A stretch of 64,000 nucleotides of DNA from Cyanophora paradoxa CCMP329 (Eukaryota; Plantae; Glaucophyta): assembly GCA_004431415.1 (NCBI GenBank), contig QPMI01000096.1, forward strand, positions 140,114-204,113, in the 5' to 3' direction. The notes under the pieces were generated by a model. That model ran no database searches, was not told where the DNA came from, and was given only the letters and a program-made list of their open reading frames with translations. Shown piece by piece: positions 15,244-59,179 of this stretch (the stretch's first letter is position 1; each line of letters starts with the position of its first letter). The position numbers and the translations under genes are program-made.

Positions 15244-25096
<9,853 letters not shown>

Positions 25097-37876: not shown

Positions 37877-38122
37877 CCGTAGACGACTTAAATACCGCGC
37901 CACATATTACCGCGTTCTAAAATTTCGGCGCCGGTAGGCGCTTTAGCGCGGCACCAAATTAGCGCGTTTTCATCAATTTGGGGTACGGCCCATACAAAAG
38001 TGTTAGCAAATCTGAGCAAAAGACAATTACCGCGCTACCAAATTACCGCGTTATAAAACTTTTGAGCGCGGTAATTTGGTAGCGCAGTAGTTAAGTCAGC
38101 GCGGTATATAAGTCGTCTACGG
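37877..38122. mobile_element. Tc1/mariner (pogo/Tc2-like) MITE, 246 bp
   Basis: 24-bp TIRs CCGTAGACGACTTA(A/T)ATACCGCGC with 1 mismatch, flanked by TA on each side (37875-37876, 38123-38124). Internal ATTACCGCG repeats occur in both orientations, and the interior is AT-rich. Confidence 0.88.
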
Positions 38123-38492
38123 TAGCTACCGCCCAGCCTCAGGGCCTACCGGTATAGGCGCGGGGGCGAGGGGTGCCACCGCCGCGCGCGGCATGCGGCG
38201 GACCGGCCCGTCGAGCTCCGGGGCGGCCGCCGGGATCGCGCCCACCACGCGGGCCCAGTGCGCCCGGATCTCGTCGCGGAGCCCCGGGTCCGGGTCCGCG
38301 CACGCGGCGCTGCGCAGGGGGCCGCGCGTCGGCCACACCCGCGTCTCGGGGTGCGGCGCGAGGTCGGGCTTGAGCCCCTTTTCGATGCCCGGTTTATTTT
38401 CCTTGGCCCGCGCGCGCCCGGGGCGGCGCCGCTTTTATCCCCTGCGCCCGAATAAAGGGCCGCGCCTCGGTTCCGCGCGTCCGACGCCCCGC

Positions 38493-38789
38493 ATGGACGC
38501 GATACGGGAGGCCGCGCACGCTTCGGGGCTCGAGGTCGTCAACTCGAGCGGGGCGATGGCCCGCGATCCGCGGCGGGCGCTCGAGGTCATGCTGGCGGTG
38601 GCGCGCGCGCGCCCCACGGCGATCGTGGCGGCCGAGGTCTCGGGCGGAGCGGCGCTCGTCGCCCACTGCGCGTGCGATGCCCCGAGCGGATCGAGCGGGG
38701 CGACGCGGACGGGGCCCGTCGGCTCGTCGCGCGCGCCCGCCGCGCGGCCGACCCGACCGAGGACCCGCTCGGCATCGAAGAGGGGGTAG
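38493..38789 (+). CDS. Hypothetical viral-type ORF (MDAIREAAHASGLEVVNSSG...), probably frameshifted near 38680
   Basis: ATG at 38493 preceded by AATAAA at 38451. The N-terminus looks globular; a plausible acidic continuation lies in another frame (ORF 38672..38953). Confidence 0.4.
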   Translation: MDAIREAAHASGLEVVNSSGAMARDPRRALEVMLAVARARPTAIVAAEVSGGAALVAHCACDAPSGSSGATRTGPVGSSRAPAARPTRPRTRSASKRG

Positions 38790-38945
38790 TGGAGGAGGAA
38801 GAGGATGCGAAAAATGGGGGAGAGGAGGAGGAGGGGGAGGGGGACCGCGGGGGGGCGGCAAACCCGCCCCCACCCCCCCCGCCCCCGGCCGCAGACGAAC
38901 CCGACGACGCGTGCGCGTGCATCCTTCCGCTCCGCCTCCTCCTCC

Positions 38946-39230
38946 TCAGGTGATGCGTAGGATCCCGTGCCGCGCGCGGATGTCGGCGAGGTACTCGCCG
39001 ATCGCCGAGGCCACGACGGGGCACTCGACGGCGGCGGCGCGCACGACGCTCTCGGCGTACCCCGGCGTCAGCTCCAGGAACGCGCGGCGGTCAAAGTACG
39101 GGATGGGCCGGCCGCGGTAGCAGTTGGGGCACCCGTCGTGCGGCGGGAGGGGCCTCGGCTCCATCCTCGGAGGAACCGGGTAGATGGGCGTCGGGAGGAC
39201 GACGTGGACGGGAGGTGCGTTCGACGCCAT
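38946..39230 (-). CDS. Hypothetical 94-aa intronless protein (CPNC motif)
   Basis: ATG-to-stop ORF with non-shadow amino-acid composition and an AT island ~35 nt upstream. Confidence 0.55.
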   Translation of the reverse strand: MASNAPPVHVVLPTPIYPVPPRMEPRPLPPHDGCPNCYRGRPIPYFDRRAFLELTPGYAESVVRAAAVECPVVASAIGEYLADIRARHGILRIT

Positions 39231-39307
39231 CGCCGAGTCGCCCGGGCGGTCCTCGGACGGGGCGATAAATAGGCGGGCGCCGGCCGGCGCGCCCGTCCGC
39301 GAACCCG

Positions 39308-39595
39308 ATGTCCCTCTTTGCCGCGCCGCCCCCCTTGGGCGGTCCCGAGCCGGATCCCGCGACCCTCGCCGCGATCAAGACGTGCATCACGTGCGTGCAC
39401 TACCTCGCCGACCCCCACCGGGCGCGCGACGGCCTCTGCATGGCCTTTGCGGAGATCAACCCCGTCGACGGACTCCGCCAGACGAGGGCGCGGTGCAGCC
39501 GAGAGAGGCAGCACCTCCTCGGGAGGTGCGGGCCCGACGCGCACCGCTACCGCCCGCGCGGGGCTAGTGCGTCGAGGGGCCGCGCGAGGACGTGA
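39308..39595 (+). CDS. Small Cys-rich protein, CxxCxHY...C..F...NPVDG...R...CGPDA, resembling giant-virus hypothetical proteins
   Basis: Intronless ORF divergent from the 39230 ORF, with GATAAATA between them. The motif pattern is recalled from large-DNA-virus ORFans and was not searched. Confidence 0.55.
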   Translation: MSLFAAPPPLGGPEPDPATLAAIKTCITCVHYLADPHRARDGLCMAFAEINPVDGLRQTRARCSRERQHLLGRCGPDAHRYRPRGASASRGRART

Positions 39596-39938
39596 GGATC
39601 CGGGCGAGGAGATGCACCTTGTGCGCGATTCGTCCGTCCCCGCCCACCCTGCCGCCCACGACGGCCGCCCCGAGGGCGGAGCCCAGCTCCCGGGCGTGCG
39701 GCGGGATCTCCTCGTAGAGCTCCACGAAGCGCCGTCGTACCGCAGGGCACGCGCCGGCGGCGACGAGCAGGTAGGTCTCCGCCCGCGCGAGGTTCTCGTG
39801 CAATAGGTGCTGCTTCTCGCGGATGTAGCCGCACGGCTCGCCGTTTTCGCAGAATCCGCACGAGCGCGCCTGCTTCCAGTCGACGACCCGCCTATCGCAC
39901 CGCATCTTTTCGAAAAGAAAGGGGAACTCGCCTTCCAT
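39564..39938 (-). CDS. Hypothetical 124-aa intronless protein (CGFC..C)
   Basis: ATG-to-stop ORF; TATTAATAAAAA island ~40 nt upstream; 3' end overlaps the convergent ORF. Confidence 0.55.
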   Translation of the reverse strand: MEGEFPFLFEKMRCDRRVVDWKQARSCGFCENGEPCGYIREKQHLLHENLARAETYLLVAAGACPAVRRRFVELYEEIPPHARELGSALGAAVVGGRVGGDGRIAHKVHLLARILTSSRGPSTH

Positions 39939-41552
39939 GCGTACGCGCGCGCGATCCGTGGGGGAGGGGGGCGCATTTTTATTAATACGCGAAACGCCCT
40001 CACCGGGCGCGCCGGGTTCCGACCCTCGGGCCAGCGTCCACGATCCCGGCCTCCATGGAACCCCCCGCGTCGGCGAGGAACCGCCGGATCGCCGTCGGCG
40101 CGCCCCGCGGTGTCGCGGCGGTCGCGTCGGGCCCCCAGCCCGCGACGAGGTCGGACCACAGGAACGGGTAGAGGTCGCCCTCGGTCAGGTCCGCGTCGCC
40201 CGAGGGGTCGCTCGGGATTCCCTCGGGGGGGTACGGGGTTGCGAGGGCCGCCTCTGGCGGCGCCCTTGTGCACCCCGCGGGGGACAGTGCGTAGCAGCTT
40301 CGTCTTCTACAGCCTGCTGGCGTTCCGGCAAGCCCGGGATCATCGCGCCCGCTGGCAGCTAGCGCAATCTCGGGAAAGATCGACAGCCGCGCCTGGCGGG
40401 TCCGGCGCCGATCTGGGCTCGTCCTGGATCGTACGCCGTGCGCGTAAGGACGCCCCGGGCGCGGCGGATCCCCCGCGTGCGCGCAGGTTGCTCTTCGGAC
40501 GCACCATCCAACAGCGCCCGGCAAAGTAGAAGGCGGCAGAGGCGGAGCGAGTAGGACCATTCCTCCCGCCAGATGACGCCGGCCTCTCGATGACCGGCGG
40601 CCGCCGAGGTTCCGCCGCACGGGGGTCCTCCTGTGCGTCTCCTCCGGCGCCGGGACTCTCCTCTCTGCTCCGCTCTCGGGTCCTCGTCCTCCGGCGGCCC
40701 GCGTCTCTCTCCTGCGGGCACCCGGGGCGCCCGCCAGCGGGTCGGCGACGGTGGAGCCTCGCCGCGGCCGCGCTGCGATCGGGGCAGGTGTCTGGCGGCG
40801 GCGGACTGGTTCTCACGCACTGGTGGCGGGAGCTCGAGGAGGAGGAACCGCGGCGCGAGGTGGCGGCTCACCCCTGGCAAACCGCTCCAGCGGCGGCCCC
40901 GCGCGGGTCGCCGTGGCGGAGTTGGGGCGCCGCGCGCCACCCGCAGTCGTCCCCTTTCTCTTTCTCTCGTCCTAGATATAGAAGTAGGAGTAGGCGACGC
41001 GCGCGACGCTACGTTTCTTTCTTTCTCGTCGTCTATCTCTGAGGTTGGGTTCCTTCGCAGATCCTTTCCTGCTTTCGTGACTCCTCGTAGGGATATGCCT
41101 CGTGCATCCTGGAATATAGGCTATTATGTACTGAGGTGTACGTGGGCAGGCTATCGGAAAACGAGAACCCTTGCTCCCCGCAGTACATAGGTCTGTTTTT
41201 TCAGGACCTTTTATGAGGATGGGCCCATGGGCAGCTGTCTTGCTATTCTCTACTTGTTAGTGAGGCAGACTGGTAAACTTCGGTTTTGGGTAGATTCGAC
41301 TTGTCTACTTTCGGAAGGGTCCGGTAGATTGATGTGGTAGTGCCGTCAATATACCGTCATTTTTGCAAAAAAAAAGCCCGAGGGGTCGCTCGGGGTCCCC
41401 CTCCCGGCGGGTCCGCCGGTCGCCCGTAGGGGGTACACCGACGCGACAAGGGTACCCTTCTCTCTTATATTATTATATTATATTATTTAATAGATTTCAA
41501 ATTCAAAACTAAAAAAGTAATAGATTGTATACTGTGGTAGTAGTCTACAAGC

Positions 41553-41807
41553 ATGGTCGGAGACTACCTCTACTACGATCTCCCCAAGGACGGCGAAAAG
41601 TCGCGCAGCTTTGGAAACACGGGGAAGCGCCTCCTCGCGATTCGCAAGCTCAAGCTCTACAACGTCACCCCCGACAAGCCGCTCGACGGCAAGATGCTGG
41701 ACGCCTACGACTACGCCCGCACGATCTCTCGCGTCTTCGGGCGCGCGATGTCCAAGGCCAAGCCGGGCAAGGAGCTCGACGTCCTCCTGGGCGGTTACAT
41801 GTGCTAG
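41553..41807 (+). CDS. Hypothetical 84-aa basic protein (MVGDYLYYDLPKDGEKSRSF...)
   Basis: Clean ORF with strong C/G third-position codon bias, directly downstream of the AT-rich (ATATT)n block. Confidence 0.65.
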   Translation: MVGDYLYYDLPKDGEKSRSFGNTGKRLLAIRKLKLYNVTPDKPLDGKMLDAYDYARTISRVFGRAMSKAKPGKELDVLLGGYMC

Positions 41808-42349
41808 GGGCGAAGCGGCTTTTTCCCCACCCTCTGTTCCCCGCCCATTTTTCTCGCTCGAATTCGATTCACCGCCCTCTATCCGCAAGCCTCGGCGGCC
41901 TCGTCGCGCCGCGCCGGGGGCATCGGGCCGCGGCGCCGTCGCGCCGGACGCGACCGACAAAGGGCCGCACGAGGGCGAGGTAGGCGACGGGCAGGAGGGC
42001 GACCTGGGCCGCGGCGACGGCGAGGTGCGCCCCGCGGGGCCCACGCGGCCTCGTGCAGGCGCGCCCTCCGGATGGCGGCGTCGGCCTCGACGTCCCGGAG
42101 CGCCGCGACGAGGGTGATGGTTCCGTCCCGGGCGCGCGGCGAGGCCGCGGCGGCCGCGCACATCGAGGCGTTGGACGGACGCGGGCACGGGAGCGGCGGG
42201 CCCGACTCGGCGGCGCGTCGGAGCTCGGCGGCGGCGCGCGCGAGGAGCTCGCGGGCGGTGTCGAGTCGGGGCGCCGGGCAGCGTCTACGAGCCGGCCCGC
42301 CGGGCGCGCGCGACGCCGCGCGGCATCCCCCTCGTCCCCGCCTGAGCGC

Positions 42350-42480
42350 CCCTCCTCCGCTTCTTGATCGTGTGGTAGGACGCAAAGTGGTTCTTCGATC
42401 CGCAAACGAAGCAGCAGTTGCCCTGCGCGCGCCGCATCGTCTCCATGAACTTGGGGTCCTCCCACGGGGCGCGCGCGATC
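42350..42480 (-). pseudogene. Zn-knuckle-like fragment (CFVCGSKNHFASYH; Cx2Cx4Hx4H)
   Basis: 'PWEDPKFMETMRRAQGNCCFVCGSKNHFASYH'; no credible N-terminus, since it runs into the antisense of the capsid-like fragment. Confidence 0.5.
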
Positions 42481-42525
42481 CGCGGCGACGGTCGCGAGCG
42501 GGTCCCAGCGCAGGCCGCGCTCCCA

Positions 42526-42705
42526 GGGTCCGCCGAGGCGGTTGCGAACGACAAGGCCAAATACTTCAGCATCAAGCTCACGGCGAAGAACCTCTCGCTG
42601 CTGGTCCAGAAGAACCTCCCGGTCCCGCTCGGCATCCTCATCTTCCGTCCGTTCATCACCCACTACGCCGCGTCGGCGATCATGACGGTCAAGGGCGAGA
42701 CGACC
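42526..42705 (+). pseudogene. Fragment resembling mirusvirus HK97-fold major capsid protein (C-terminal region)
   Basis: GSAEAVANDKAKYFSIKLTAKNLSLLVQKNLPVPLGILIFRPFITHYAASAIMTVKGETT. The 'P.P...LL.RPFI.H...SAIMTV.G..T' pattern is recalled as conserved in mirusvirus MCPs. The codon usage of this patch is distinct from its flanks. Not verified by search. Confidence 0.55.
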
Positions 42706-42922
42706 GCGGAGATGCGGCCCGTCGGCGCCGCCCTCGTGGCGCGCGGCCTGACCGGGTCCGAGGCGATCCGCGCGGCGCGCGACGCGGCCACGCCCGAGGC
42801 GTCCCCCGCGTCGGACCGTCGGAGGGGCGACGATGCGCGCCGCGTACTACGACGCCCGCCTGCGCCCGGGCGACGAGGAGGAGTTTGCGCGTCGCTTCCC
42901 GGGAGACGCGCGCTCCTCCGTT

Positions 42923-43548
42923 TCACGCGTAGTACCCGCGATCGAAGCACGGCGGGCGCGGGACGCGCACGTCGACCATCACGTCGATCATCGGGTACCG
43001 ACGGCGGCGTTCGGGTTGACGATGGCGCGGGCGGCCGCCGGAGTGATGACGCTCGTCCCGAGCCCGTCGTCCTCGGCGAGGCGGGGCGCTTCCCACGCGC
43101 GCGTCCCGGTCGAGGTAGGCGTTGGCCTCGTGCGCCTCGCCCGGGTGGCGGCCCGCCCGTCCGCGCGCGCGCCGCCGCGAGCGAGGCGATCGACCCGGCG
43201 TACGCGGGGGCCGGCGGCTCCAGCCCCGGGTCGCCGGCACCGCGACGCGCACCTCGGACGCGGCCCTGCGCAGGCGCGGCCACAGCGCGAGCGCGGCGAT
43301 CGCCTCGCGCGCCGCGTCGGCCAGGACCGCCTGCGCCTCGTCGCGCGACATCTGCGGGACGCGGAGGCCGCGGTAGCGCCCGCCGTAGGTCTCCGTGTAC
43401 GAAACGTGCTGCTTCGGGTCGTACGTCTTCCCGACCTCGGAGCGGTTCAGCTTCAGGTTCGCCCGCTGCGCGGCCGCCTTCTTCCTCGGAGGGGTCTGCC
43501 AGCACTGGACCTCGACGAATTCCAGGCCGCCGTCGAACTGCGCGTCGC
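42923..43548 (-). pseudogene. 5'-truncated intronless gene fragment (DAQFDGGLEFVEVQCWQTPPRKK...KTYDPKQHVSYTETYGGRYRGLRVPQMS)
   Basis: Protein-like composition from ~43548 down to ~43230. Upstream of 43548 the frame is merely antisense of the Cys/LamG gene. Confidence 0.45.
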
Positions 43549-46500
43549 ACGACGGCGACCCCGAGGTCCCCGCTTGGTACGTCCCCCGCGGATCTTCCCC
43601 GTGCGGGCGCGTCTTCGGGTGCGACGGGCGGTGGGGGTCAGATGCGCGGATCGACCCGGACGGTTCGTGCAGACCCGGCGCGGACTCGCCCGCGTGCACG
43701 CAGTCGGTCCCGTCGCCGCGCCGGGGATGCGCCGCCTCCGACGTGATTCTACCCCCACCCTCCAACGCGACGACGTACGCGCGGTGCGCCGAGGCGTGCG
43801 CGAACCAGCCGATAGACATGTGCGGCGGAGCCTCCTTCGAGTCGGCGACCGGCACCTGCCGCCTCTGGTTGCGCCCTCCGGAGAATTGCACGGCGGAGTG
43901 GACCGCGCCCGCGGACGGCCTCGCCTGGTTCGTCCCGTCGGGGCCGTGCCACCGCCTCGGGTGCGACGGGATCTGGGGGAGCGAGATGCGCTGGGCCTCG
44001 TGCGCCGTCGCCGGCGCAGGCAACTACACCTGCGCGCCGAACGGGTTCTGCCCCCGCCCCCCGCCGACGCCTCGCCCCGGGGGGTGCGACGGCCTCGGCT
44101 CCGAGGTCGACGCGTGCGGGACGTGCGGTGGCCCGTTCGTGGGCGGCCTCCGGTGCGAGGAGGGTCCCGCGCCCCTCGCGCTCGTCCCAGCCGACCTCCC
44201 CGCCGCGTGCGCCGGCTTCTACGACGCGTGCGGCACGTGCAACGGGACCGCGAGCGCGGCCGAGTGCGCCGCCCCCTGCGACGGCGTTCCCGGGAGCGAC
44301 CGGTACTGGGACCGGTGCGGCCGATGCGGCGGCGATGGCGAGACGTGCCGTGGGTGTGACGGCGCCGACGGGGTTGTGGACGCCTGCGGTGTCTGCCGCG
44401 GGGACAACTCGACCTGCGTCGACTGCGCCGGCGTCGCCGGCGGGGGCCGCCGCCTCGACCGGTGCAACGTGTGCGGCGGCGATGGGCGTTCCTGCGAGGG
44501 GTGCGACGGCGTCTTCCTGTCCGGGCGCACCTACGACGCCTACCGCACGTGCGGCGGATCGGAGCGCGAGCGGCGCCTCCTCCCGGACCGCTGCGGCGTG
44601 CGCGGCGGGCGCGGCGACGGATGCACCCCGGAGCTCTTCGACGGGACCGCAACGGTCGCGCTCCCGCCCGGCGGCGGGCCGTGGTCCTTTGCATCCTGGA
44701 TCCGCGCCCTCGGCCCCGGGGTCGCGTTCTCCTCGTCCTGGGAGGACACGGAGCTCGGGTGCCGCCCCGCAGAGGGCTCCGCCTGGGTGCGAATCGACGC
44801 CTCGGGGCGCCTTCGCCTCGAGGGCCCCGCCGGCGCGGCCGACGGGCCCGCCCTCCCGTCCCCCTTTTCCGCGTGGCACCACCTCGTGCTATCGCGCGCC
44901 GCGGACGGATCCCACGCCATCTACGTCAACGGGACGCGCGCCGCGTCGATCGGCGGGGGCCCGGCGAACATCACCCTCCCGGGCCGCGTCGTCGTCGGGG
45001 AGGGCGCGCCGTGCGGCGCCTCGGGGCCCGCCCCGGGCCTGCGGCTCTCCGACGTGCGCCTCTGGCTCGCCGAGGCCGACGACGCGCGCGCCATCGCCGA
45101 GATGACCCTCCCGCCGGGCGCGGCGGGCGCTCTGGCCGCCGCGGCCGCGCCCGTTATGGCGATCGGGGGCGCCCCGCGCTCCGGCGCCCGAACCGAGGGG
45201 GGGTCGAGCTCCGCGGGACGGTGGGCTCCGCCCTCGATGCCCCCATCCTTGCATCGCACGCCGCCCCGCCGGTGACCGCCGAGGACCCCGCCGATCCCGC
45301 GCCAGGGTGCGCCTTTCCCTCCAACGCGTGCGGCCAATGCGCGCCCCACGCGGACCCCGACGACCCGGACGCGTCGTGCCCGCTCGACTGCGATGGCGTA
45401 CCCCTCGGCCCCGCCATCCGCGGACCCTGCGGATCGTGCGAGTGCCCCACCGGGACGGGCCCGATCCCGCCGCCCCCGTGGAAGGCCACGGTCCTCGACC
45501 CGTGCACGGGCGCGACGGTGCGCCCGGAGGACGCCTACGCGTGCATCGACCCCCGCGCGCGAGCCTCCGGCCGCTGCGCACGCTCGCCCTCCCAGCGCCC
45601 GAGGCGGGGCGCGTCGGGGCGGAGCTGTGGTTCGCGGACCCGGATCCCGCGTCGTTCTCCGTCGAGCTCGCCGGCCTCCGCGTCGCCATCACCCCGGCGG
45701 GGGACGGACTGGAGGTGGCCGCGACGGGCGCGCGCCTCGGCCCCGTCCCCGCGCGCGGCGCCTGGGAGCGCCTGGTGCTGGAGGTGGACGCTGGGTCCGG
45801 GGCGGCGCGCGCGGCGGCGGGCCTCCGCATCCCGTCGGAGGCGACCGGGTTCGCGGCGCGGGCGGGCCGCGGCCTCCGGATCGCGGGGCGCGCTTCTCCT
45901 CCGTGCGCGTCACGGAGGGGCGCCCCGCGTTCGAGCTGCCCTCGGGCGAGTCGACGCCCGGCGCGTGGGCCCTATGGCCCATGAACGAGGGTTTCGGGCG
46001 CGAGGTGCACGACGCGACCGACGCGAACCGCACCGTGCCGGCCCCGTACCGCCGCTGGGTCCTCGCCTCCCGGAACGAGACGGCGAACCCGGTCCGGTTC
46101 GACGTCCACCGCCCCTCGTGCAACGGGACCTGGCGCGGCGCCGAGGCGCGCGACGCCTGCGGGACCTGCCTCGGAACCCGTGCGACGGCCGCCGCGTGCC
46201 CCGCCGAGGTGCCGCTCGCGGTGGCGCGCGACGCCCGCTGGATGGGGCCCGCGACGCCGCTGGACGTCGTCCTCCCCGCGGAGAGCACGGCCGAGTGCGC
46301 CTCGCTCCTCCTCTCCAACCGCTCAGAGCGGATCGATCCGACCTTTTTCGGCGCCTCGTACGACCCCCTCGCGCGGACCTGCACCCTCCATCGCCTGGAG
46401 GAGGGGGTCGCGCCCGCGGACCGCGACCTCGCCTCCCTGGAGAGCGAGGTGGGCGCCTCGTTCGTCGCGCGCTCCGCGGCGCGCCTCCCGCCGCCCCTGC

Positions 46501-46993
46501 CGACCTCGCCGCCGGCGCCGAGCCCACCCCGGCACCCTACGACTGCCCCTCCTGGGTCGCCGGCGTGTGCGTCCCCGTCCCGAACGTCGCACCGTCCGCG
46601 GGGTCCCGCCGCGCGGCCGCGCCGGGCGCTACTCGCGCCTCGCCCTCGTCCCCGCGCGCCCGACGCGCGCACCGACGCGTGCGCCGCCGAGGCGCGCCGC
46701 GCCGGCGTTCCGTGGTCCGCCCGCCAGGGCCGCGCCTGCTGGCTCCTCCCCGAGTTTGACCCGGCGTCGGCGGGCGGGTGGGACTACGCGGGCCCCGACG
46801 CCGTCGTCGTCGAGCCGTCCCTCGCCGACCTGACCAACGGGACGCGCCCGCGCCTCGTGGTCTCCGGCTCCGGCACCCTCTCCGCCGCGGTCTACGAGGT
46901 CTCGTTCGGCGACTGCCCCGCGGGCCAGTGCCCGCTGGGCGCCATCCCGTACCTCTGCCACGCGGATTCCGGGACCTGCGTCGCGTCCCGGAA
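43549..46993 (+). pseudogene. Intronless, frameshifted, both-ends-truncated Cys-rich adhesin-like gene: PAN/apple-like, CDG..DxCGVCGGD repeats, LamG/ConA-like
   Basis: Repeated GCDG...DACGVCxGD units (44080-44630). LamG-like 'WSFASWIR...WHHLVLSR...IYVNG...LSDVRLW' and 'ALWPMNEGFG'. PAN-like 'CAEACAN...CGGASF....TCRL'. Protein-like sense switches frame near 45200, 45570, 45890, 46500 and 46650. Confidence 0.7.
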
Positions 46994-47609
46994 GTCTGCG
47001 CACAAACATGTCGAGCTCGCGCCTGAGCGGCGCCTCACCTGTCACAGGCTGTCAGTCCCTCGTGCGGCTGGGGGCCCCGTCACCCGTGTCCTACCAATAA
47101 GAGTACCGTGGGGCCGGAAGGCCTCACCCCTCCTGGAACGGTTCGAATTCGCTGCACAAAACTATCAAGGTGGACGAAATAAAAGACAAAACCACTCAGA
47201 ATTGCCGACCTCCGATCCTACGTTAGGTCGGTAATTACAGATGAACGGATTTAAAAAACCTAGCTGCAGATGTAGCTGCAGAAACGGACTCATCAAAGCC
47301 AGCGTGCTTCAAGGCTTGCCGCTGCTTGAAGTCTGCTTGGAAGAAAATTGTGTCAATATTAATAGAATGCGGCTGCAACTAGAATTTGAAACCGAGCTGG
47401 AGGTACTACATCCGTTGTATAATATACGGATACCTGCATACGCGAAACTAGCTTCTATACAAACGAGGCGAGGCTGTAGCTCGGGCCGAGATCATCGGTG
47501 TCAGAAAACACAACAACAAAAAATGCAAGCGGGAAGCTTTAAGGGCCTAAGTAATCGAAGACGCAAGCTCCCGGAGTCGGGAGGGCCTCCCATCGAGTCG
47601 ATCAATCGA

Positions 47610-50600
47610 TCAGTTGTAGGGGTCGAGGTAGTACCCGCCGGCCTCGCCGTCGCGATCGCAGAGGTTCGAGCTGCAGCTCGAGCCCGGCTGGAACGAGCTG
47701 GTGGAGGCCGCGTGGCGGGGGTACCGCCCCACCGAGAAGCCCGGCGCGCCCGTCGCGGCGCGCACGGCGTCCGCCAGCGGGCCCCAGCGCCGCGGGTCCT
47801 CCGAGGCGGCCGGGCCCAGGGCCGCCAGGAAGCCCTGCGGTCGCGCCGCGGATCAAATCCCGGATCAAATTCGAATTCGATCCGGATCAAATCTCATACC
47901 TGGAGGGCGGCCTCAGCGTCCGTGCGCCAGAGCGACTGGATCCGGTCCTGGATGTGCGCCGCCTGCAACGCCTGCAGCGAAAATCAGGGGGCGGTTGGCG
48001 ACGCCTGCGGCGAAAGTCGGGGGCCGTACCCGGGCACGGCGGATGATGTCGGGGCGCTCCCGCTCGATCCAGTCAATGATGGCTGCGGCGAAGATGAGGG
48101 AGGGGTACGCAAGGAAACTTCCGAAAGTTGGATTCCAAGCGGGGGCGCGCGCACCGAGATGGGGCGGGCGACGGGGTCCAGGGGCTCAGTGGCCGGCGGC
48201 GGGTTCCCCCGCCGGTCCGCCACGTACGAGAGCCACTGAGGGGGAGCTCAGGCGCAGTGCGGGATCGTGGGAGGGCCCGGGCAGGGCGGGGCGGACCTGG
48301 AGGATGGCGGCGACGCCCGAGAGGTCGTCCGGCACCGTCAGGTGCGAGACGCCTGCACGCGGCGGCCGCCGGGCGTCAGTCAGAAAGGAGAGCAGGCTCT
48401 AGCAGATCCAAATCGTGGCCGGGCAGGGCCGGTCCGGGCCGGTCCGGGCGGGGCGGGGCGGGGCGGGGGCGGGGCGGACCGTTGGTGTGCATGACCTTGG
48501 TGCCGCCGATCTGGAGGTTGCTCGTGTAGACCTCCCGCCCCAGCACCTGGCCCCACCCTTAAGCTTCAGAGGCGCGGAGAAGACGAGGGGCCGGGGAGGG
48601 AGGGAGGGCGCCTTGTTTAGGGCCTGGAAGCCGGTGAGGATGATGGGGCCCGTCCCCGTCTTCTGGATCACACGCTGCGGCCTGCGCCTCAGCGAGCGCA
48701 GAGAGGCCTGGCCTAGGGCGGGGCGGACCTGGCCGAGGCGGACGAGGTAGGCCCCGATGCCCACCGTCCGGCTCGTCACGAACCTGTACGCATACGTCGC
48801 GGCCGCGTGAGAGAGGGAGAGAGGGAGGGAGGGCGCGAACTGTTAAGAAGATAGATCTCATCTAATCCATGGCCATCATCTAACCCATGTTTCTTTCTTG
48901 CTCTCTACGCACGTGAGGGTAAAGGTCTCCTCGTAGGCGCGGCTCGTCTCGCCGGCGATGAGGCCCGAGCCCGACAGGTTCTCCACCCCGAGCCCGTCCT
49001 CCGCCCCGATCTGGCGGCGCCGGCGTCAGCGGCGCCGAAAGACGAAGGCCGAATGTTCAGAAGAGGAGCTAGGATCGTGTCAAAGGAGCCGGTGGATAGG
49101 AGATGGATGGTTGGCTGGTCCGGGGAAGGAGGAGGACGGCAGCGCTCGAGCCAAATCCAAACGAGCGCACGATGTCGAGGATGCGGTAGCGGGTCTCGGA
49201 GCCGCCGCCCTCGCAGACGACCGTCACGGGCTCGCAGACCACCGACTTGCCCTTCAGCCGCTCGTGGTCCGCGGGGGTCAGGTACAGGTACCGGTGGCCC
49301 TGAAGGAAGAAGAAGGAGAAGAGGGAGCTTAGAAAAGCTTAGGATGAAAAGAGATGGAGAAGCTTTAGGGCGCGGGACCTTGGCGGGGCAGCCGGGGTCC
49401 ACCCACTCGACCTTGAAGCAGGCCTTGACCTGCGCTCCCGCGCGCCGTCAGCTCCGGAGGAGGAGGGGACGAAGGGGAAGCTTAAGGGATCGGCACAGAG
49501 AGGGGGAGGGGGGGAGGGGGCGCGGAAAGTGGCGGCCTCCTATCGCTCGCTCGCGCTCAGCGGAGCGGGGATCTATCTCAGGGCCTAGGGGGAGGGGGCG
49601 GGCCTCGGCGGCGAGGTGGATGCGGGCGCCCGAGTTATAAGGCTCTATAAGGTTCCAAGGTTCTCTAAGGTTCTCTAAGGTTCTCTATGATGAGGCTCTT
49701 CGGGTTAGGCTTCTAATTATAAGGTTCTTCCTTAAGAAGAAGAAGGGAAAGTTTAAGGGATCGGACCTCGGCGGCGAGGTTGATGCGGGCGCCCGAGTTG
49801 GCGGCGAGGTACACGCGGGGGAGGCCCTCCCGCCGGGCCAGCTCCGACGCCTGCTCAGGTCGGATCGGATCAGATCAGATCAGATCGGATTTGATCGGAT
49901 CGGATCAGATCTGACCTTCTGGAAGAGGGCGTCCTCCTTGGGGCTGAACGAGCCGCTCTGGTGCGTGATGTCGTTCGCGATCAGAATGATCTCCCGGCCC
50001 CTGCGGGGGGTACAGCGATCAGGAGTCGGGGGGGGGAGAAGAGCGGATGAAATGGGGGCGGCGCACCCCTCCTCGGGGTACTCGGGCGTCCAGAGGCGCA
50101 TGCGCCACGCGACCATGCCCACGTCGTTCTTGCCGGGGCCCCTGAGCGCGGAGGAGCGCGGGTTAGACTTCGGCCGGAGAGGGGTACGAGAGGAGAGCGG
50201 GAGGGGGGTACCGGGTCGTCTCCTGGAGGGCGCCGTCGGGCCCAAGGACGAGCTCGGTCGCCTCCATCAGGCGCGCGTTGACCTTCGACTGGGAAACGCT
50301 CAGAAGCTCGAATAGAATAAGGGAGGGCGGGGGGGTACTTTCTTGCGGAAGGAGTAGGAGCGCCAGGCGTCGGCGGCGGCGCGGGCCGGGGCGGCGCGGA
50401 GGCGCTGCTCGGTGTTCGCCTTCCAGCAGTCCGCCAGCGCCTGCGACGGGCGAGGAGAGAGAGAGAGAGAGAGAGAGATTCGTAAGTGAGAGGGGCAGCG
50501 GAGGGCGGGGGGGCGGGGGAGAGAGAGGGCGTCCCCGGCACCTTCTCAAAGAGCGCCGGGAAGTCGTAGACGTAGGAGGTCCCTGCGGGGCGAGGGCGGG

Positions 50601-53600
50601 CTCAGAGGGGGGAGGAGGAATAGAAGGAGGAGGGGGAGCCCGGGACTTATATACAGAGCTTCTAAAAGAGAGCGAGGATCCGGAGCTTGAAGAAATTATC
50701 AGCAGGGGGCGAGGGGGAGGGGAGGGGAAGAGAGGCGGGCGCGCCGTTCTGCTGGGCGGCGATGCGCTTGCGCTCCATCGGGGTGAGGACGGGGTACGGC
50801 TCGTTCGGGTGGAGGCAGCCGGCCCCCGCCTCGGCGCACAGCGGCGTGTACTCAGTCTTCCCCGTCGCCGGGTCCAGCTGCGCGGGGCGAGGGCGGGATG
50901 GCTCAGAGCGAGGAGGAGGAGGAGGATGAGGGGAAGGGGAGGCCGGGGCTTGTACGAGAGAGGGAAAGATTGAGAGAGAGAGAGAGAGGAGCTTAAGAAA
51001 GCTTATGGAAGCAGAGCTCATCGGGAACAACAGAGCTCGCCCGCCCGCCCGCCCGCCCGAGGGCGGCCCCCCGAGGACTCAGGATCAGGACCGCGGCTCG
51101 GAGCGCGGGAGGGCTCTGCCCTTGCAACAACAACAAGGCCCGTCGTCTCATCGGAATCAACGATGCCCGTATATGTAGATGCCCGCCCGAGAGACTTCGC
51201 TCGCCCGCACCTGCTCGCGGTAGCCGTCGACGCAGAAGACAAGGCCGGTCGGGTTGGACGCGCAGACGCGCAGGTGCGTGTTCGTCGAGGCGTGCGGCTG
51301 CACCGCCGCCCGCACCTCCACCCCCGCCACCTTCGAGCGAGGAGGCGATCAGAGGGGAGGGGGGGAGGGGCGCGAGGCCCGGCTCGGCCCGGCTCGGCCC
51401 GGCTTGCCTTGGATTTGACCATGCGGGCGGCGTAGCGGCCGCACATGCGCCGCACGATCGCCAGGAGCGTGTCCCCCGAGATCGGCAGGTCCGGCCGGAT
51501 CTGCGGGGCCCCCGCGGCGATCAGGCCGGGTCCCGTCTGGATCCAGAGATCTACGATGCTGGGCTACCTCTAGGAAGACGTCTTTAGGTCTTTAGACTTT
51601 TAGATATTTAGTTTTTTAGGTACTAATCTCCAATCAGATCAGATCAGATCAGATCAGGTCTGGGCTGACCTCGAGGAAGACGTGGTTCTGGTCGGTGCGC
51701 TTGTAGCGCGCATCGCACCCCGCCGCCTCCAGCGCCTGCGCCCGAAACGCTTCAGCTCAAGGGGATGCCCGAGCGGCCGAGGACGGGAGATCCCTCGCGA
51801 GGCCTTCGAGGGCAGGGGCCGCATCGGCCCGGGCAGTGAGGCTCCCAGCTATTAGCTTCTTCTAGCTTATTCTAGCTTCTTTTGGCTTCTTCTGGCTTCT
51901 TCTAGCTTCTCCTAGCTTCTCTTCCTTCTTTCCTTCCCACTCACCTTGAGGCCCTCAAGGAAGACGTGCTCGGCCTCCGGGATCGAGACCGCCGCGTCCG
52001 TCCGCCCCACGAACAGGCTCGCCTGCAGCCCGCGAGGATTAAGAGGACGAAAAGGAAGAATTGGGGGGGGGGGAGAAGAGAGGGGTACGCGCCTGGCGGA
52101 CGATGGCGCGGACGAAGAAGCGGCGGTCCGCGTCCACGGGGCCGGACCCCTCCTCCCCGCCCGCCGCCGGCTTCCCGGCACCCGCCGCCCCGGCCGCCGC
52201 CGCCGGCTTGGTCGACTGCGCACGGGGCGTGAGTGCAGGGCGGGAGAGGGGTACGAGGAGAACAATGCGAGTGGGGGTACCTTCTCCTCGGCGTAGTAGA
52301 GGTGGATGTGCCTCTCCGCCGTGCTGCACTTCGTGACCGTGAAGTTCGACTGCCGTGAAGTTCAGGGGGTACGGTACACAGCCGGGGGTACGGGTAGGCG
52401 GCCCGGTGGGGGAGAGTACCAGGCGCTTGAGCTCGAGCTCGTAGGAGAAGGCGGGGAGTACGTGGCGCAGGATCGTGTCCTCGCCGTACCCCAGGTTTTC
52501 CCGGAACGTGTAAAAGGCGGGGTACTCCGCCGTCCGCCCCACGATGAACGTCACCTGAGACGGCAGCCTCAGATCAGATCAGATCTGAGATCGAATTCGA
52601 AGAATCGGGCCCGTGCGTGCCATCTTAATGCCTGCGGCGAGGAGGCCGGCCGCGTGGGCCTTGCAGATGCGCGCGAGGTGCTCCACGAAGAACTGCGGCG
52701 AAAACAAATGATGAGAATCTCTAAAAATAGCTCATCGGGGGGTACGTGCGCGCGCGCACCTGCTCGGTGGGGACGGGGCTCGCGGGGGTATCGTAGACGA
52801 TCGCGACGTCCATGACGTTCACGGCCGGGGGGTTCCCCGCCTGGGGCGCCTCCAGCTGCAAACTGGCCCGGTACGCCGCCAGCGTCTGCCGCAAGGGAGG
52901 GAGGGGGGGGATGAACGAAGAAGAGAGGAGGAGCGGAGGGGGGGGGGTACGCACAGCCGGGAGGTCGGCCTCGAGCTGCTCGAAGCTGCGGAAGAGGACG
53001 AGGGCGCCCCTGCGGCGAAAGAGCCGGCGAGACCTCTCACATCTCTCATCTGATCTGATCTGATCCGATCCGATCCGACGCACCGGCGGCGGACGGGGGC
53101 GCGCCCGTGGCCCTTGCGCTCCGCCGCGCCGGCGAACAGGAACGTGAAGTCGACGCGGGACGGCTTCCCCTCCTAAACCGGGGCGGGGTACCGTCAGTTG
53201 TAAGGGGGGGCGAAGTCGGGGGGGGGAAGAGAAACAGGGGGTACCGCGTTGTGGAGGGACACCGCCTCGAGCTCGTACTGCACGTACGTGCGCCGCACGA
53301 ACGACTCCAGCGCCGCCCCCGCGACGTCTTTTTTTTGGGGGGGGGGGGAAGTGAGGGGAAGGAGCCGGGCGAAGGAGGGTACGGCGAACCGGGCTCTGGG
53401 TGGGCGAACATGGGGACGAGGATGTCGTAGATGCCGTAGTTCGCCTGGGCGGGGTTGAAATCAAGTAAGAGAGAAGAAGGTAAAGAAAGAAAGGAGAGTG
53501 ATAAGAGGGCACCTTGACGATGTGCAGGCAGCCGGCGGCGCGGGCCCCCGCGGGGCCCGAGGCCGCAGCCGCCCTCAGCTCCTCCTCCAGCCGCTGCTGC

Positions 53601-56600
53601 GAAAGTCAGATATGATCCGAGAGTCGCATCTGAAAACGGGGCGGGGCCCGCCTGCTTGCGCTGGTCGTTGGTGGGGTTCGCCATCGCAGTGAGGAGCGCC
53701 CGCGCGCGCAGCGCCACTGCCGGTGGCATCGGCGAGGGGGAGGAGGAGGGGTACCGGCGGACGTCTGTCTCGAGGCGATCGCACGCACCTTCCGCGTAGG
53801 GCCGCCCGGCGAACGCAACGAGCTAAGGAAGGCGGGGGGTACATTGAGCTTCGGCCCGACCTCGGCGAGCGAAAAAAACGCGCGGGGGGGGGGGTACCGC
53901 ACCTGGTGGAGGGCGGCGGCGTAGGGCTCGAGGGGCCCGGCGGCCATCTTCTCGAAGGCGGCCGCCAGGAGCTTCAGCTTGCGCGGCAGGCCCGCGTGCG
54001 AACGAAGCAGGTCCACCGCCTTTCCGGGGGGGGGGGGGGGGGGAAGGATCAGGGTTGTCGAAAACACTGGAAAGGCTGTACCCCCCCCGCACCTTGCCGA
54101 GGTCGGCGTGGAACTCGTCCCGCAGGGCCTCGATCGCGTCCTCGTCGGGCTTCCCCTGCGCTATTTTTAGGGCGGGCAAAGGGGGGGTACGGCGGCCTCC
54201 GGACGGACCGAGGAGAAGGGGAGCTCGGAGGCGATGAATTCGCGGAGGAGGGAGCCCAGGGCGGCCGCCTCGCGCCCGGGGAGGCCCCCCGCGTACGCCG
54301 AGCAGAGCTCGGCAAGGGGCTTGGCCTGCGCGGGAGAGAGCTATAGATAAGAGAGAAGCGGGGGCGGCTCGTATGTATGAGGCGTGGGAGGGAACCTGGG
54401 CGGCGAGGGCGTCGCGCTCGGCCTTGGAGGGCAGCGCGGCCGCCGTCGCCTCGAGGAGGTCGCTGAGGGGCCCCACCCGAAGCAGCTCGGGGCGACCCGC
54501 GCCTTCGCCGGCCGCCAGCTCGGCCTCGTAGGCGGCGAGCACCGCCTCGGCGCCGGCCACAAGCGCCGGCGGCACGCGCGATGCGATCACGCTCAGGACC
54601 TGTGCTCGGGTGAGCCGTTCCCATCTTGCGACAGTCGCGCTCAGGCGGGCGGATCCGGACCTCGCGGAACTCGAAGAGGGGGAGGCGGGGGTCCCGCAGG
54701 CGCCCGACGAGCTCGTCCAGAACCTCGGGGCGCCCCTCGTAGCCGGCCATCACCGCCCGCGCCCCCGCCAGCGCCTCCCGCATCCGCTGCTGCGGCTGCC
54801 CCCGCACGCCGGTCATCAACCGCTTTCCCTCCGGCCCCCTCCCCCTCCCCTCCCCTCCCTTCGTTCTCGCACCTTGTCGCCGGTGGAGCGGGGCGGGCGG
54901 GCGGGGGGGAGGGCCCCGCGCCACTCGGCGGCGCGGCGGACGCGGGAGGGGTCGTCCAGCTCCAGCGTCGCGATCAAGTCCCCCGCTTCCAGCACGGAAC
55001 CCTCCACCTGATCCCGGCTCGGATCAGATCAGATCAGGCTCAGGTGATTCGGAGGACCTTTCGGTAGGAGATGCGGCCGGCCTCGGGGGCCACCAGCGGC
55101 ATGTACCTGGCGGGCGAGCAGGCCGGGATCAGATCAGATCGGATCAGATCATATCAGATCATATCACATCAGATCGGATCAGATCAAATCGCACATCTTC
55201 ATGACCTCAATCTCGGCGTAGGGCGCGCCGGCCCCCACGTGCGCCCCGTCCTCCAGCAGGTGCCGCACCAGCTTCCCCGTCATCTGCGAACGAAGCTGCG
55301 GGGGTACAGGATCAGAGTGGAAGGGGGGGGGGGGGGGGGGGATCCGCGGGCCTGGCTGGGGTCGTACTCCTTGGGGAACTGGCAGGTCCTGCCGTCCAGC
55401 AGGAGGCGAAGCCCTCCCACCTCCTCCCGCGCGTACACAACGTGCGACTTGCCTGAAGCGGCGGTGAGACCCGGGGGGTGGGGGGGGGGGAGATGGAGGG
55501 GTACGGAATCTTCCTCACCGTCGAGGAGGACGAGGAGGCCGCCGTCGGAGAGGGGCCGCACCTCCGCCTCCACGGCGGTCTTGTTCGCCATCAGCCGGAA
55601 GCTGCGCATGGGGGGTACCGTTTCATAGGGACCGGCGCGCTCGGGGGTACGGGGGCGAACCAGTGCGGCCCCGTCTGCTGCGCCGAGAAGACGTACTTGA
55701 CGTCATCGTAGATCAGCTCCACGGCCGACGTCACGCCCAGCAGCAGCCTCGAGGGGACCTTCCGGGCACGGCTCGGCGGACGGGTACGGAGAAAGAAGGG
55801 GGGGGTACCTGGCCGCGGGCGAGGGCCTCCCGGACCTCGTCCGCCCGCTGCCCCGCCTGCTTGTGCGCGCGCTGGGGGGTACGTGAGCACAGGCCGGGGA
55901 GGGGGTACATGGCGTTGGGGGAGGGGGGGGGGTACCTGGAGGGCCCCGCAGAGGACGGCGGTCATCGTGTCGGGGCGCTCCGCGCTCACCTTCTCCGCGA
56001 TGAGGCCTGAGGGGGTACCCGGTGAGCGAGGGGCGAGGGGGTACGAAGCAGGGGATGGGGGGGGAGGGGGGGGAGGGAGGGAGGGGGTTTTTACCGTCGA
56101 GCCACTGCGTGTGGAACTGGTTCTCGGCGTAGTTCTTCATCTGCAGCAGCTTGATGAGGTACTCCACCTGGGAGGGGTACCGGCATCATCAGCTCGAGAT
56201 CGAACACCCAAGGGGAGAGGGGGGAAAAGGTTCACCGGGGTACGGATGTCTCCGTGGATGGAGATCTCCTTCAGGGCGCAGACGAGGTTCTTTCGGGCCA
56301 CGTCGCGGGTCTCGCCCCACGCGAACAGGTGCCCGAACTGCAGTCGCGCACGCGCGGGTGAGCGAACTCCACGTTTCAAATTAAAGGGCCCGAACAGGGC
56401 TCGAACCTGCGAGTCGGAGTACTCGTGGATGCCGCCGCGGCCGGAGACGGAGAAGTAGCCCCAGACGGACGTGCTGGAGCGAAAGTTGAGCTCCTGGATC
56501 TGCCCGCTCGTCGGCTGGAAGCCCTGCGAACGAAGTCAGATCAGACGCGCGCGGGGTACGTGCACCCCGGGGTACGCGGACCTCGTCCGGGTTCTCCGCT

Positions 56601-59179
56601 GTCGTCCGGCTTGAGTGAGCGAAGAAGGGGGGCGAACTTAAGTCAAGAATGGGCACCTGTGATGCGGGAGGCGATGACGTGGCCGTGCGGGGGCCGCCGC
56701 CGCTCGCACTGGTCCAGGTCGATCGGCGAGGCGCCCTCCGGGTCCTGCCGGGCGGCTCTTAGGAGGGCGGGGGGGTACACGAAGCTAAGGCCTAGGCCCG
56801 CTCGCCTCGCTGTAGAAGCGGCGGATCATGGGGATGCGGTCAAGGCGGATGCCCATGGCGACGTGCAGCTGGGCCGCCGGCATGTTCACCCCCGAGATCC
56901 ACTCCGTCACCGGGTGCTCCACCTGCGCCGGGGCCCTCGGAAAAGGAAACAAAAGGAAGGAAAAGGAGGGGAAAGGAAGAGGGGTGGGGGGGGGGGGAGG
57001 GGGGGGAGGGCGGGGGTGGGGGGGGCGGGCGGGGGGGTGGGGGGGGGACCTGGAGGCGGGGGTTGAGCTCGAGGAAGTAGAAGCGGCCTGCCTCGTCGTA
57101 GAGGTACTCGACGGTGCCCGCCGAGCAGTAGTTGACGAGCTTTGCGAGCCGCACGGCGGCCTTCTCCATCTGGAGCCAGACCTCGGGCGGCGCCGCCGTC
57201 ACGGGGCCCTCCTCCAGGATCTTCTGGTGCCGCCGCTGCACCGAGCAGTCGCGCCCGTACAGCGCGACCGCGTTCCCGTGCTGGTCCGCCAGCAGCTGGA
57301 CCTAAGAATTCGATCTCATGATCAGATTCGACTCATGATCAGCGGATCGAATTCGGACCTCGAGGTGGCGGGCGTTGGGGCAGAGGCGCATGATGAAGAC
57401 GGGGGAGCCCGGGACCTCGCCCAGCACCGCCCGGAAGGCCGCCGCCACGCCCTCCGGCGACGTCACCTGCGGCGCTTAAGCTTCCCCCGCTCGAAGGTGG
57501 AGGAGGAGGAGGGGGAGGAGAGCGCGGGAGGGGTGGAGGAGACCTTGCGGATGCCCTTGCCGCCGCCGCCCTCGGAGGCCTTGATCATGACGGGGTACCC
57601 GATCCTCTCGCCCACCGCCAGCGCCTCCTCCACCGTCGTCACGCAGGCCTGATTCGAAATTCAAATTCTGATCGAATTTGAATTTGAATTGAGGGCGGAC
57701 CGTGCGGTAGACGTCCTTGGGGATGCCCTCGGTCTTGTAGTCGACGGTGACGCCGGTGCCGGACCAGGCGACGCAGGAGACGTCGGCCGTCTGCGCCAGG
57801 ATCGTCGAGCCGATCTTGTCGCCCAGGTCCCGCATCGCCCGCGGGTTCGGCCCCATGAAGACTACGCCGGTTCGGGTCTCCGCGAGGGTCTCCGGGAGCC
57901 GCGGGTTCTCCGACGCGTGGCCCCAGCCCGGCCACACCGCGTCGCACCCCGTCTGCTCCGCGATGTCCACGATCTGCCGCCCGCCCGCGCGCGCGCGCCC
58001 GAGCTTGAGGACTGGCGAGGAGCCGGTCGCCGGGCCGGGGCGCATGCATATGCGCACGAGCGGAACGTTCGCGTAGTTGTTGTTGTTCGTTCCGCCGGGC
58101 ACGTCGACGACCTCGTCGGCCAGCCTGATGTACTCCGCGTTGACCTGCGCATGCGCACATGCATGCACGGGCGAGCGATCAAATTTGATCCGACTCCGGG
58201 GCGCGACGGAAGCGCCAGTCGCGGCTCTCTGGGGCTCCGGAAGCCAGCGCATGCATATGCGCACCCGCAGATCGTCCGGCGTCGCCATCGCGACGAACTG
58301 TATCGTGCGCTCGTTGCCGAAAGTCTCGTATGCCCAGCGGCGGATGGAGCGGATCGCCTTGCACGCGCCAATGCCGTTGTTAGCGACCAGGATCTTTCGG
58401 ATGACCTTCGTTCCTCCCAGGCGTCTGCAGTAGTCTGCAACTGCGTCCGCAGCGGCCGGCGCCGCGTCGGCCGCCGCGGTGTTCTGTTCGATCGGAGGCT
58501 GCTGCTTGCTCTCCCCGGCCGCCCCGCCATGAACGGCAAGGATGTTCTCTATCAGGCTCGCCTGCGAGCGCGCACGTACGTGAAGTCAGCGCGGCACCGG
58601 TTTGACGGGCGCGTCTTTGAGGGAGCTAAGTACTAGTCGGCTCGAGCTCAGGGACGCGAGTCGGACGTCATTGGCTCAGGGCGCAAAAGAAGGCTAAGTA
58701 GAGGCGCTAGAGCACGCCGGCATGTCAAGTACGCGTATCATCGGCGGGGTTTGGTCGGTTGGCCCGGATCAGGGGCCGGATCACGCCCGGAGGCCGGCGT
58801 AGAACGTCGGAGGCGAGAACCGGCGATATAACTTTTTAATAGACATTGATGGAAGCTTGAGACGTTCTTCGGCACGCGCACGGCAGGCGTACCATGGGGC
58901 TGTCGACGACTCGACGTCCGAAAGCTCAGCTGCAGGAGCAACCGTCGCCCACGCTGCACCACTCGAGCTTCGGTCGCGCAGTCCAGCGTCGGCTCCCGCA
59001 GCTAGCAGCTCCGCGAATCGACGGGTGGCCCTGCTGCGATCCGAGAGCCTGCGAGAGGAGCTCACGGGGTACACGTCTGACGCCGAGAATCGAAGATCAA
59101 CGTCAACGGCTTGCAGAGATATCGATCGCTGTGACGGGGACGTCGGCGTCACCGGGAGGATAAGCCTATAGCTAGGCAT
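47610..59179 (-). CDS. ACC1: Eukaryotic multidomain acetyl-CoA carboxylase (BC-BCCP-central-CT), with most of the C-terminal CT lobe absent
   Basis: [74 protein letters not shown], biotinylation site EVMKM (~55194-55208), [54 protein letters not shown]. The 5' exon starting at ATG 59179 and the exact stop are tentative. Confidence 0.93.

What the first reader, a model, noticed from the sequence alone, without database searches (positions are those of the whole stretch)
38150..46995. Intron-free island: candidate endogenous mirusvirus/large DNA virus element in an intron-dense genome
Seen: ~8.8 kb with no recognisable introns, none of the host's intronic microsatellites, small ORFs packed on both strands, and ORFs cut off at both borders (~38155 and ~46993). 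Established: protist and algal genomes carry endogenised large DNA viruses with compact gene organisation. Inference: together with the capsid-like fragment, this is a decayed viral insertion between a host repeat gene and ACC.
Basis: partly seen in the sequence, partly recalled or inferred. Interest (0 to 1): 0.9.

Follow-up and report, generated by a model that had tools for sequence, protein, structure and literature searches.

The report
Chopped mirusvirus remnant in protist chromosome
A block of intron-free DNA in this microbial eukaryote's chromosome carries a 60-residue piece of a herpes-related capsid gene and is likely a young, cut-up leftover of a mirusvirus infection, a kind of viral relic already known from many protists.

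Summary
The island is real and chromosomal: independent DNA contigs run unbroken through both borders. A ~60-residue piece at 42511-42711 belongs to a family that folds as an HK97, herpes-like major capsid protein and lies on large-virus contigs with mirusvirus-type genes. It is the only capsid match in 64 kb, under a tenth of the gene.

(1) The 13 one-base gaps between 41360 and 47150 are omissions in the window's assembly, so the right half is one 3.4-kb intron-free frame, not decayed ORFs. (2) 40217-41375 is a multi-copy poly(A) retroposon with a 19-bp target-site duplication. (3) Missing microsatellites are weak evidence.

Decay is by truncation, not point mutation. Viral origin of the other ORFs is inferred, not shown: none has a firm homolog, and the long cysteine-rich gene has both protist and viral-contig relatives. 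Verdict: endogenous mirusvirus-type fragment, new member of a known kind; interest 0.4.

The parts
37877..38122 (.). Multi-copy MITE just outside the left border (terminal inverted repeats, flanked by TA on both sides)
   Evidence: 27-nt arms 37874-37900 / 38099-38125, 96% complementary; summed DNA depth 2228 and 4458 in this bin against ~60 and ~120 in unique flank
38158..46995 (.). The island: 7.66 kb foreign block plus the inserted retroposon; borders approximate; no terminal repeats or target-site duplication found
   Evidence: Codon periodicity; contigs 38097-40243 and 41346-48412 cross the borders; best flanking direct repeats 6 nt
38158..38434 (-). Frame of unknown function cut at the left border; no ATG seen
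   Evidence: GC3 0.90; no Pfam/PHROG/NCBIfam hit
38493..38953 (+). Small ORF of unknown function with a frame change near 38690 (likely the one gap that contigs show in 38097-38885; position inferred)
   Evidence: no family hit
38946..39230 (-). Intact 94-aa ORFan
   Evidence: no hit
39308..39595 (+). Intact 95-aa Cys-rich ORF; nearest Atlas clusters are viral hypothetical proteins (lead only)
   Evidence: scores 0.89, 0.88, 0.87, all under the tool's 0.9 line; no hit
39564..39938 (-). Intact 124-aa ORFan with Cys pairs
   Evidence: no hit
40000..40216 (-). 3' part of a frame interrupted by the retroposon; it continues in frame into 41395-41470 when the insert is left out
40217..41375 (+). Poly(A)-tailed, multi-copy retroposon without a recognisable protein gene; 19-bp target-site duplication at 40198-40216 and 41376-41394
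   Evidence: TSD is the longest exact repeat in the island; DNA contig depth 344-570 against 48-95 for neighbours; variant copies in RNA-labelled runs X15, X17
41465..41552 (.). AT-rich spacer between divergent frames, likely a viral-type promoter region (inferred)
   Evidence: 28-nt A/T run at 41465
41553..41807 (+). Intact 84-aa ORFan
   Evidence: GC3 0.89; no hit
42348..42476 (-). Zinc-knuckle-like fragment without a start (weak)
   Evidence: zf-CCHC E 0.067; HNH-endonuclease PHROGs E 0.05-0.09
42511..42711 (+). Fragment of a mirusvirus-type HK97 major capsid protein, matching residues ~406-474 of the 686-aa P0002
   Evidence: family fold
42988..43546 (-). Frame of unknown function, no start of its own, back to back with the long plus frame
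   Evidence: phrog_34108 E 0.005; low-confidence fold without match
43545..46995 (+). One intron-free frame of ~1150 codons: PAN-like, CDG/CGxCGG cysteine repeats, LamG; no signal peptide or membrane anchor at either end, so likely cut at both ends
   Evidence: open with X at 5 listed omissions to ~46660, a sixth inferred; LamG E 3.3e-07, PAN E 0.0016; hydropathy; relatives
48250..58560 (-). Intron-rich host acetyl-CoA carboxylase gene, right flank; matches stop at about residue 1800 of 2211

Best explanation
A 7.7-kb intron-free block holding a 60-residue piece of a mirusvirus-type HK97 capsid gene sits in the host chromosome, and it is likely a young, non-functional remnant of one large DNA virus genome, likely pasted in by break repair and cut down by deletions and inversions. 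Shown: integration, the capsid fragment, truncated frames, the later retroposon insertion. Order of events: viral DNA in and chopped, then the retroposon. It cannot make a particle: about a tenth of one capsid gene is left.
For: Integration: contig 41346-48412 (7138 nt) crosses the right border in X1 and X10, contigs from 38097 cross the left border, with 0 substitutions in X1 and depths (48, 50) close to flanking contigs (39-59); the same 7138-nt contig in X4 and X14; 14 of 24 listed runs hold 92-93% of the words. Capsid: 2 hits among 1.84 billion proteins, 73% (E 7e-10) and 48% identity; a profile of 64 relatives finds 1 of 1354 six-frame peptides, E 1.3e-09, still E 6e-08 without the two seed hits, while 201 shuffled or reversed controls score below 0 bits. 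Fold of P0002: pLDDT 79; best viral match sturgeon herpesvirus capsid E 3.7e-10; HK97 capsid Z 14.1, KSHV capsid Z 13.7 over 518 residues, rmsd 5.1. Relatives lie on 30 viral contigs; among 60 neighbouring proteins scanned were TBP, M16 peptidase, trypsin-like proteases, an ARF GTPase and PolB, which PMC10132985 lists as mirusvirus core genes (passages). Youth: neutral divergence of the long frame at most about 3.5-5%. Retroposon came later: 19-bp duplication of island sequence, frame rejoins without it.
Against: Only ~200 nt is shown to be viral. Seven small frames have no firm homolog; the one viral lead scores under 0.9. The long gene's 27 relatives match mainly through the cysteine repeats and include protist proteins (Pelomyxa, Thecamonas) as well as unnamed metagenomic ones. 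No island peptide other than the repeats and the capsid piece matches the 33 loci fetched. Codon choice does not differ from the host. No single contig spans the MITE or the retroposon, so those two links rest on the window's assembly plus the duplications. The DNA runs may all be one strain. No reference mirusvirus profile could be run, so 'mirusvirus' rests on fold plus gene context.
Confidence: 0.68

Rival explanations
1. Mixed origin: the capsid piece and perhaps the small left-hand ORFs are viral, but the 3.4-kb cysteine-rich frame is a processed copy or horizontal transfer of a protist surface-protein gene that landed at the same spot.
For: Named relatives of the long gene are protist proteins; a retroposon is active in this genome; codon choice is host-like.
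Against: No long paralogous piece appears among the DNA contigs shown at 90% or 95% likeness (tables cut); no poly(A) tail or duplication at its ends; the same repeat occurs in a gene on a viral contig, L031; it abuts the other intron-free frames without a spacer.
Confidence: 0.15
2. The block is a faithful copy of a viral segment that already held a shuffled capsid piece; the donor could then be a mirusvirus or another large DNA virus that had picked the piece up.
For: The capsid piece is in frame with GC3-rich sequence on both sides (42406-42816); an unchecked earlier AI note describes capsid pieces fused into other genes inside a viral genome (e1-8336993).
Against: Several frames lack starts, and the long gene lacks the signal peptide and anchor that its relatives P0067, P0072 or P0073 carry; this is hard to square with a working viral segment.
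Confidence: 0.11
3. The fragment is kept by selection, for example as a template for antiviral small RNAs or as a host-used surface-protein piece.
For: Frames are open and GC3 is 0.92-0.94.
Against: Genes are cut mid-domain and one is broken by a retroposon; youth alone explains open frames.
Confidence: 0.04
4. Assembly chimera or co-cultured virus or bacterium.
For: The window's assembly does have one-base errors here.
Against: Contigs of four runs cross the right border and two runs cross the left border; a multi-copy retroposon sits inside with a target-site duplication.
Confidence: 0.02

Closest known systems
Endogenous mirusvirus marker fragments in eukaryotic assemblies (Zhao et al., PMC10827195; parts 1-2 of 5 read, supplements searched)
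   Same: Short, partial HK97 capsid signal inside a protist-type genome; the paper reports 541 capsid signals in 98 genera, many of them short and decaying
   Different: Here the piece is only ~60 residues, its nearest relatives are two singleton, unnamed sequences, and the damage is truncation with almost no point decay; clade not placed
Small viral islands of Acanthamoeba (Blais et al., PMC12210455; passages and section 14)
   Same: Intron-poor clusters of viral genes and ORFans, deletion and recombination, colonisation by host transposons
   Different: Donors there are nucleocytoviruses and sites are often subtelomeric; here the marker is mirusvirus-type and the site lies between host genes
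Cymbomonas CHeCME elements (PMC10675990, passages) and the Aurantiochytrium integrant AurliV-2 (PMC12606086, search listing only)
   Same: Mirusvirus-related DNA in a host chromosome, retroelements nearby
   Different: Those are long or complete elements; this is a 7.7-kb scrap with no portal, heliorhodopsin, TBP or polymerase detected
Mirusviricota major capsid protein (Gaia et al., PMC10132985, passages)
   Same: HK97 fold with herpes-like extent; relatives sit among TBP, M16, trypsin-like and Ras-family genes
   Different: P0002 is a short member (686 aa against 900-1200 for most of the 64 relatives); the window holds only residues ~406-474

Membership tests
Mirusviricota-derived sequence | HK97-fold major capsid protein | tested here: met
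   Fragment belongs to the P0002 family; family model matches HK97 and herpes capsids. Met for the family; the window holds only a piece.
Mirusviricota-derived sequence | Small tower insertion in the A subdomain, closer to herpesviruses than to phages | tested here: inconclusive
   495-518 residues align to herpes capsids against ~230-275 to phage capsids, at similar Z; the insertion site itself was not mapped
Mirusviricota-derived sequence | Capsid family found with eukaryote-type core genes (TBP, M16, trypsin-like, Ras-related, PolB) | tested here: met
   In relatives' contigs L001, L005, L013, L016, L025, L026; list from PMC10132985. None of these genes is in the island.
Mirusviricota-derived sequence | Portal, terminase, triplex 1/2, maturation protease | not testable with these tools
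   No mirusvirus profiles in the libraries; general scans of island frames found none
Mirusviricota-derived sequence | Placement in a named clade or order | not tested
   No labelled reference capsids were held
Endogenous viral element | Continuous with host DNA on both sides | tested here: met
   Right: 1.4 kb of host-side DNA on one contig; left: 61 nt, up to a multi-copy MITE
Endogenous viral element | Intron-free, ORFan-rich block unlike host genes | tested here: met
Endogenous viral element | Silencing by methylation or small RNA | not testable with these tools
   Only contigs were available
Complete provirus / giant endogenous viral element | Whole virion and replication modules, terminal repeats | tested here: not met
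   7.7 kb, one capsid piece in 64 kb, no terminal repeats
Polinton-like virus / virophage | Terminal inverted repeats, double jelly-roll capsid, packaging ATPase, integrase | tested here: inconclusive
   No terminal repeats and no such family hit, but no dedicated profiles were run; the capsid found is HK97-type
Non-LTR (SINE-like) retroposon, 40217-41375 | Poly(A) tail, long target-site duplication, multiple copies | tested here: met
   A9 tail, 19-bp duplication; raised depth and variant copies

The most novel reading that the evidence does not exclude
A very recent, single-step capture of several scattered pieces of one GC-rich mirusvirus genome at one chromosome break (like a multi-fragment organelle insertion), marking this culturable host as the host of an unsampled, short-capsid mirusvirus lineage known only from singleton sequences.
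Probability: 0.3. Interest if true: 0.62.

Novelty: new member of a known kind. Interest (0 to 1): 0.4.

Why it matters
It ties a barely sampled mirusvirus capsid lineage to a sequenced, likely culturable host, and it bears on an open question that PMC12210455 (section 14) calls debatable: whether fragmented viral insertions enter as scraps or are whole proviruses broken down later. Here heavy truncation comes with almost no point decay, which favours early or immediate chopping. It also warns that frameshift 'decay' in such islands can be assembly error. The general phenomenon is already well described, which caps the interest.

Tried and rejected
No whole genome is held for this window, so copy number and sister fragments elsewhere were not searched directly. 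Expression: no RNA holder listed; RNA-labelled contigs of X15 and X17 cover the retroposon, host exons and 47152-47653 but no long piece of the rest of the island is listed, X18 laid nothing and X20 only 21-26-nt matches; this is no evidence either way. Word-based searches missed the capsid piece; full HMMER found it. Capsid profile against PDB sequences: nothing significant. Viral-contig scans with four small ORFs, 0 of 4 found relatives beyond chance and likewise 43235-43546; prokaryote genomes with the 84-aa ORF, none; phage tblastn 0 of 3; Atlas blank for the 84-aa ORF. Single-sequence fold of 43235-43546 was poor (pLDDT 56) and matched nothing. Codon-usage test did not discriminate. Rfam gave only a MITE hairpin below threshold, no tRNA. 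The idea that the capsid piece is an exon of an intron-rich mirusvirus gene (PMC12768974, passages) was dropped: no other capsid exon lies in the window. A search for break-repair capture of viral fragments in protists returned 5 unrelated papers. Earlier findings: none by place, by P0002, by the retroposon or by the first word set.
Full report
Setting. The window is from an intron-dense, GC-rich eukaryote: exon-like runs outside the island have a median of 147 nt, and the right flank is a many-exon acetyl-CoA carboxylase gene (7 of 24 frames scanned hit ACC domains). No genome is held. No call determined the host lineage.

Is the island real? Yes. Fourteen of 24 listed runs, all labelled organism A, hold 92-93% of the sampled words. 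In X1 and X10 a 7138-nt contig covers 41346-48412, crossing the right border with 1.4 kb beyond it, and contigs starting at 38097 cross the left border by 61 nt. X4 and X14 give the same 7138-nt contig. Their depths (48 and 50 in X1) are close to those of flanking contigs (39-59). The tool warns that depth is no copy number; but contigs that run unbranched through the borders argue (inference) against a second near-identical copy or a common empty allele in those runs. Limits: no contig spans the multi-copy MITE at 37877-38122 or the inner repeat, and the runs may be one strain.

Assembly errors, not decay. Between 41360 and 47150 the contigs differ from the window by no substitution and by 13 one-base additions; 12 are listed, all C or G in runs (42029, 42035, 42997, 43082, 43151, 43160, 43233, 45196, 45549, 45884, 46522, 46599). 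With X at these places the pieces from 43389 join into one frame to ~46660. Five listed additions fall in this gene; one more would return it to the frame that codon periodicity shows for 46660-46995. I infer that the unlisted thirteenth lies there; this was not seen. The frame has 1145 codons without a stop, with 257 single changes that would give one, which bounds neutral divergence at about 3.5-5%. It encodes a PAN-like domain, 14 cysteine-repeat motif matches and a LamG domain, without a hydrophobic stretch at either end.

The capsid piece. HMMER over 1.84 billion proteins gave 2 hits for 42538-42714: P0002 (686 aa, 73%, E 7e-10) and P0003 (48%), both singleton, unnamed. P0002 has 65 relatives counting itself; 64 were aligned. 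Their profile hits 1 of 1354 six-frame peptides of the window (E 1.3e-09); without the two seeds E is 6e-08, and controls score below 0 bits. The piece matches 61 of 64 members at E up to 10, 59 of them at the same place. The P0002 model (pLDDT 79) matches herpesvirus and phage capsids. The family lies on 30 viral contigs; 60 of 123 neighbouring ORFs from 10 of these loci were scanned and include TBP next to the capsid gene, M16 peptidase, trypsin-like proteases, ARF, PI3-kinase and PolB, the set given for mirusviruses in PMC10132985 (passages). So the piece is mirusvirus-type by fold and context; no labelled mirusvirus reference was run. It covers residues ~406-474 only, and the match ends at 42711.

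The rest. Left of the capsid piece lie small ORFs with short AT-rich spacers. None has a firm homolog. One, 39308-39595, has viral hypothetical clusters as nearest neighbours at 0.87-0.89, a lead only. The long gene's 27 relatives align mainly through the repeats and include protist surface proteins and unnamed metagenomic proteins; one viral contig carries the repeat. Codon choice does not separate island and host. Viral origin of this part is therefore inferred from layout and contiguity.

The retroposon. 40217-41375 ends in nine A and is flanked by an exact 19-bp duplication, the longest exact repeat in the island; leaving it out rejoins a minus-strand frame. DNA depth is several times that of its neighbours and RNA-labelled runs hold variant copies, so the family is multi-copy and likely transcribed; whether this copy is cannot be told. 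It arrived after the block existed.

How it likely arose. No terminal repeat, no target-site duplication above 6 nt and no integrase hit: entry by end-joining repair is the simplest reading (inferred). Start-less frames meet back to back at ~42490 and ~43545, both borders cut genes, and the capsid gene is down to a tenth, while point decay is near nil. Either scattered viral pieces were captured together, or a larger insert was quickly cut down; these data cannot tell the two apart. I put 0.68 on a single-virus, chopped, non-functional remnant.

Against what is known. Partial mirusvirus markers are common in eukaryotic assemblies (PMC10827195, parts 1-2 of 5), and small, transposon-invaded viral islands are described in Acanthamoeba (PMC12210455, passages and section 14) and Cymbomonas (PMC10675990, passages). 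So this is a new member of a known kind. One conditional point: from recalled genome style I guessed a glaucophyte-type host, which no call tested; the supplement of PMC10827195 lists four mirusvirus markers but no capsid for its one glaucophyte assembly, and PMC12344493 (section 9) reports methylated giant-virus regions, mostly nucleocytoviral, in that lineage. If the guess is right this piece would be the missing marker. Five literature searches showed no paper on this locus in their listings; without the host's name that is a weak check, and supplements of the other papers were not seen.

Verdict. Observation partly confirmed, interpretation right in its core, wrong on the kind of decay. 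Interest 0.4.

Noticed in passing
window 47150-48300: The ACC copy seems 3'-truncated: matches end near residue 1800 of 2211 at ~48260, the carboxyl-transferase profile stops at position 197 of 493, four downstream frames match no ACC, and 1.3 kb is too short for ~400 more codons with introns. An RNA-labelled contig differs from it at 48960-48975 and 50102-50111, hinting at another copy.
   Followed up: partly
window 47152-47653: RNA-labelled contigs of two studies start at 47152 and 47154 where DNA contigs go on: a weak hint of a transcript end 160 nt from the island.
   Followed up: no
window 33000-37300: Seven diverged copies of a ~500-bp unit on the minus strand, each coding a similar small Cys-containing peptide (family D6); GC only 0.52-0.56; four pieces gave no Pfam hit.
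   Followed up: partly
window 40217-41375: The retroposon family has no recognisable coding gene yet very high depth and many variants in RNA-labelled runs (up to 12013 in X15).
   Followed up: partly
window 15245-25097: A long plus-strand gene that looks by eye (recalled motifs, not scanned) like a subtilase followed by repeated extracellular domains, Pro/Ser-rich linkers and a membrane anchor.
   Followed up: no
P0003: This capsid relative aligns for ~500 residues and then runs out of frame, as if an intron were read through.
   Followed up: no
L031 756-15298: A viral contig with a run of large secreted-type proteins, one ending in the same cysteine repeat.
   Followed up: no
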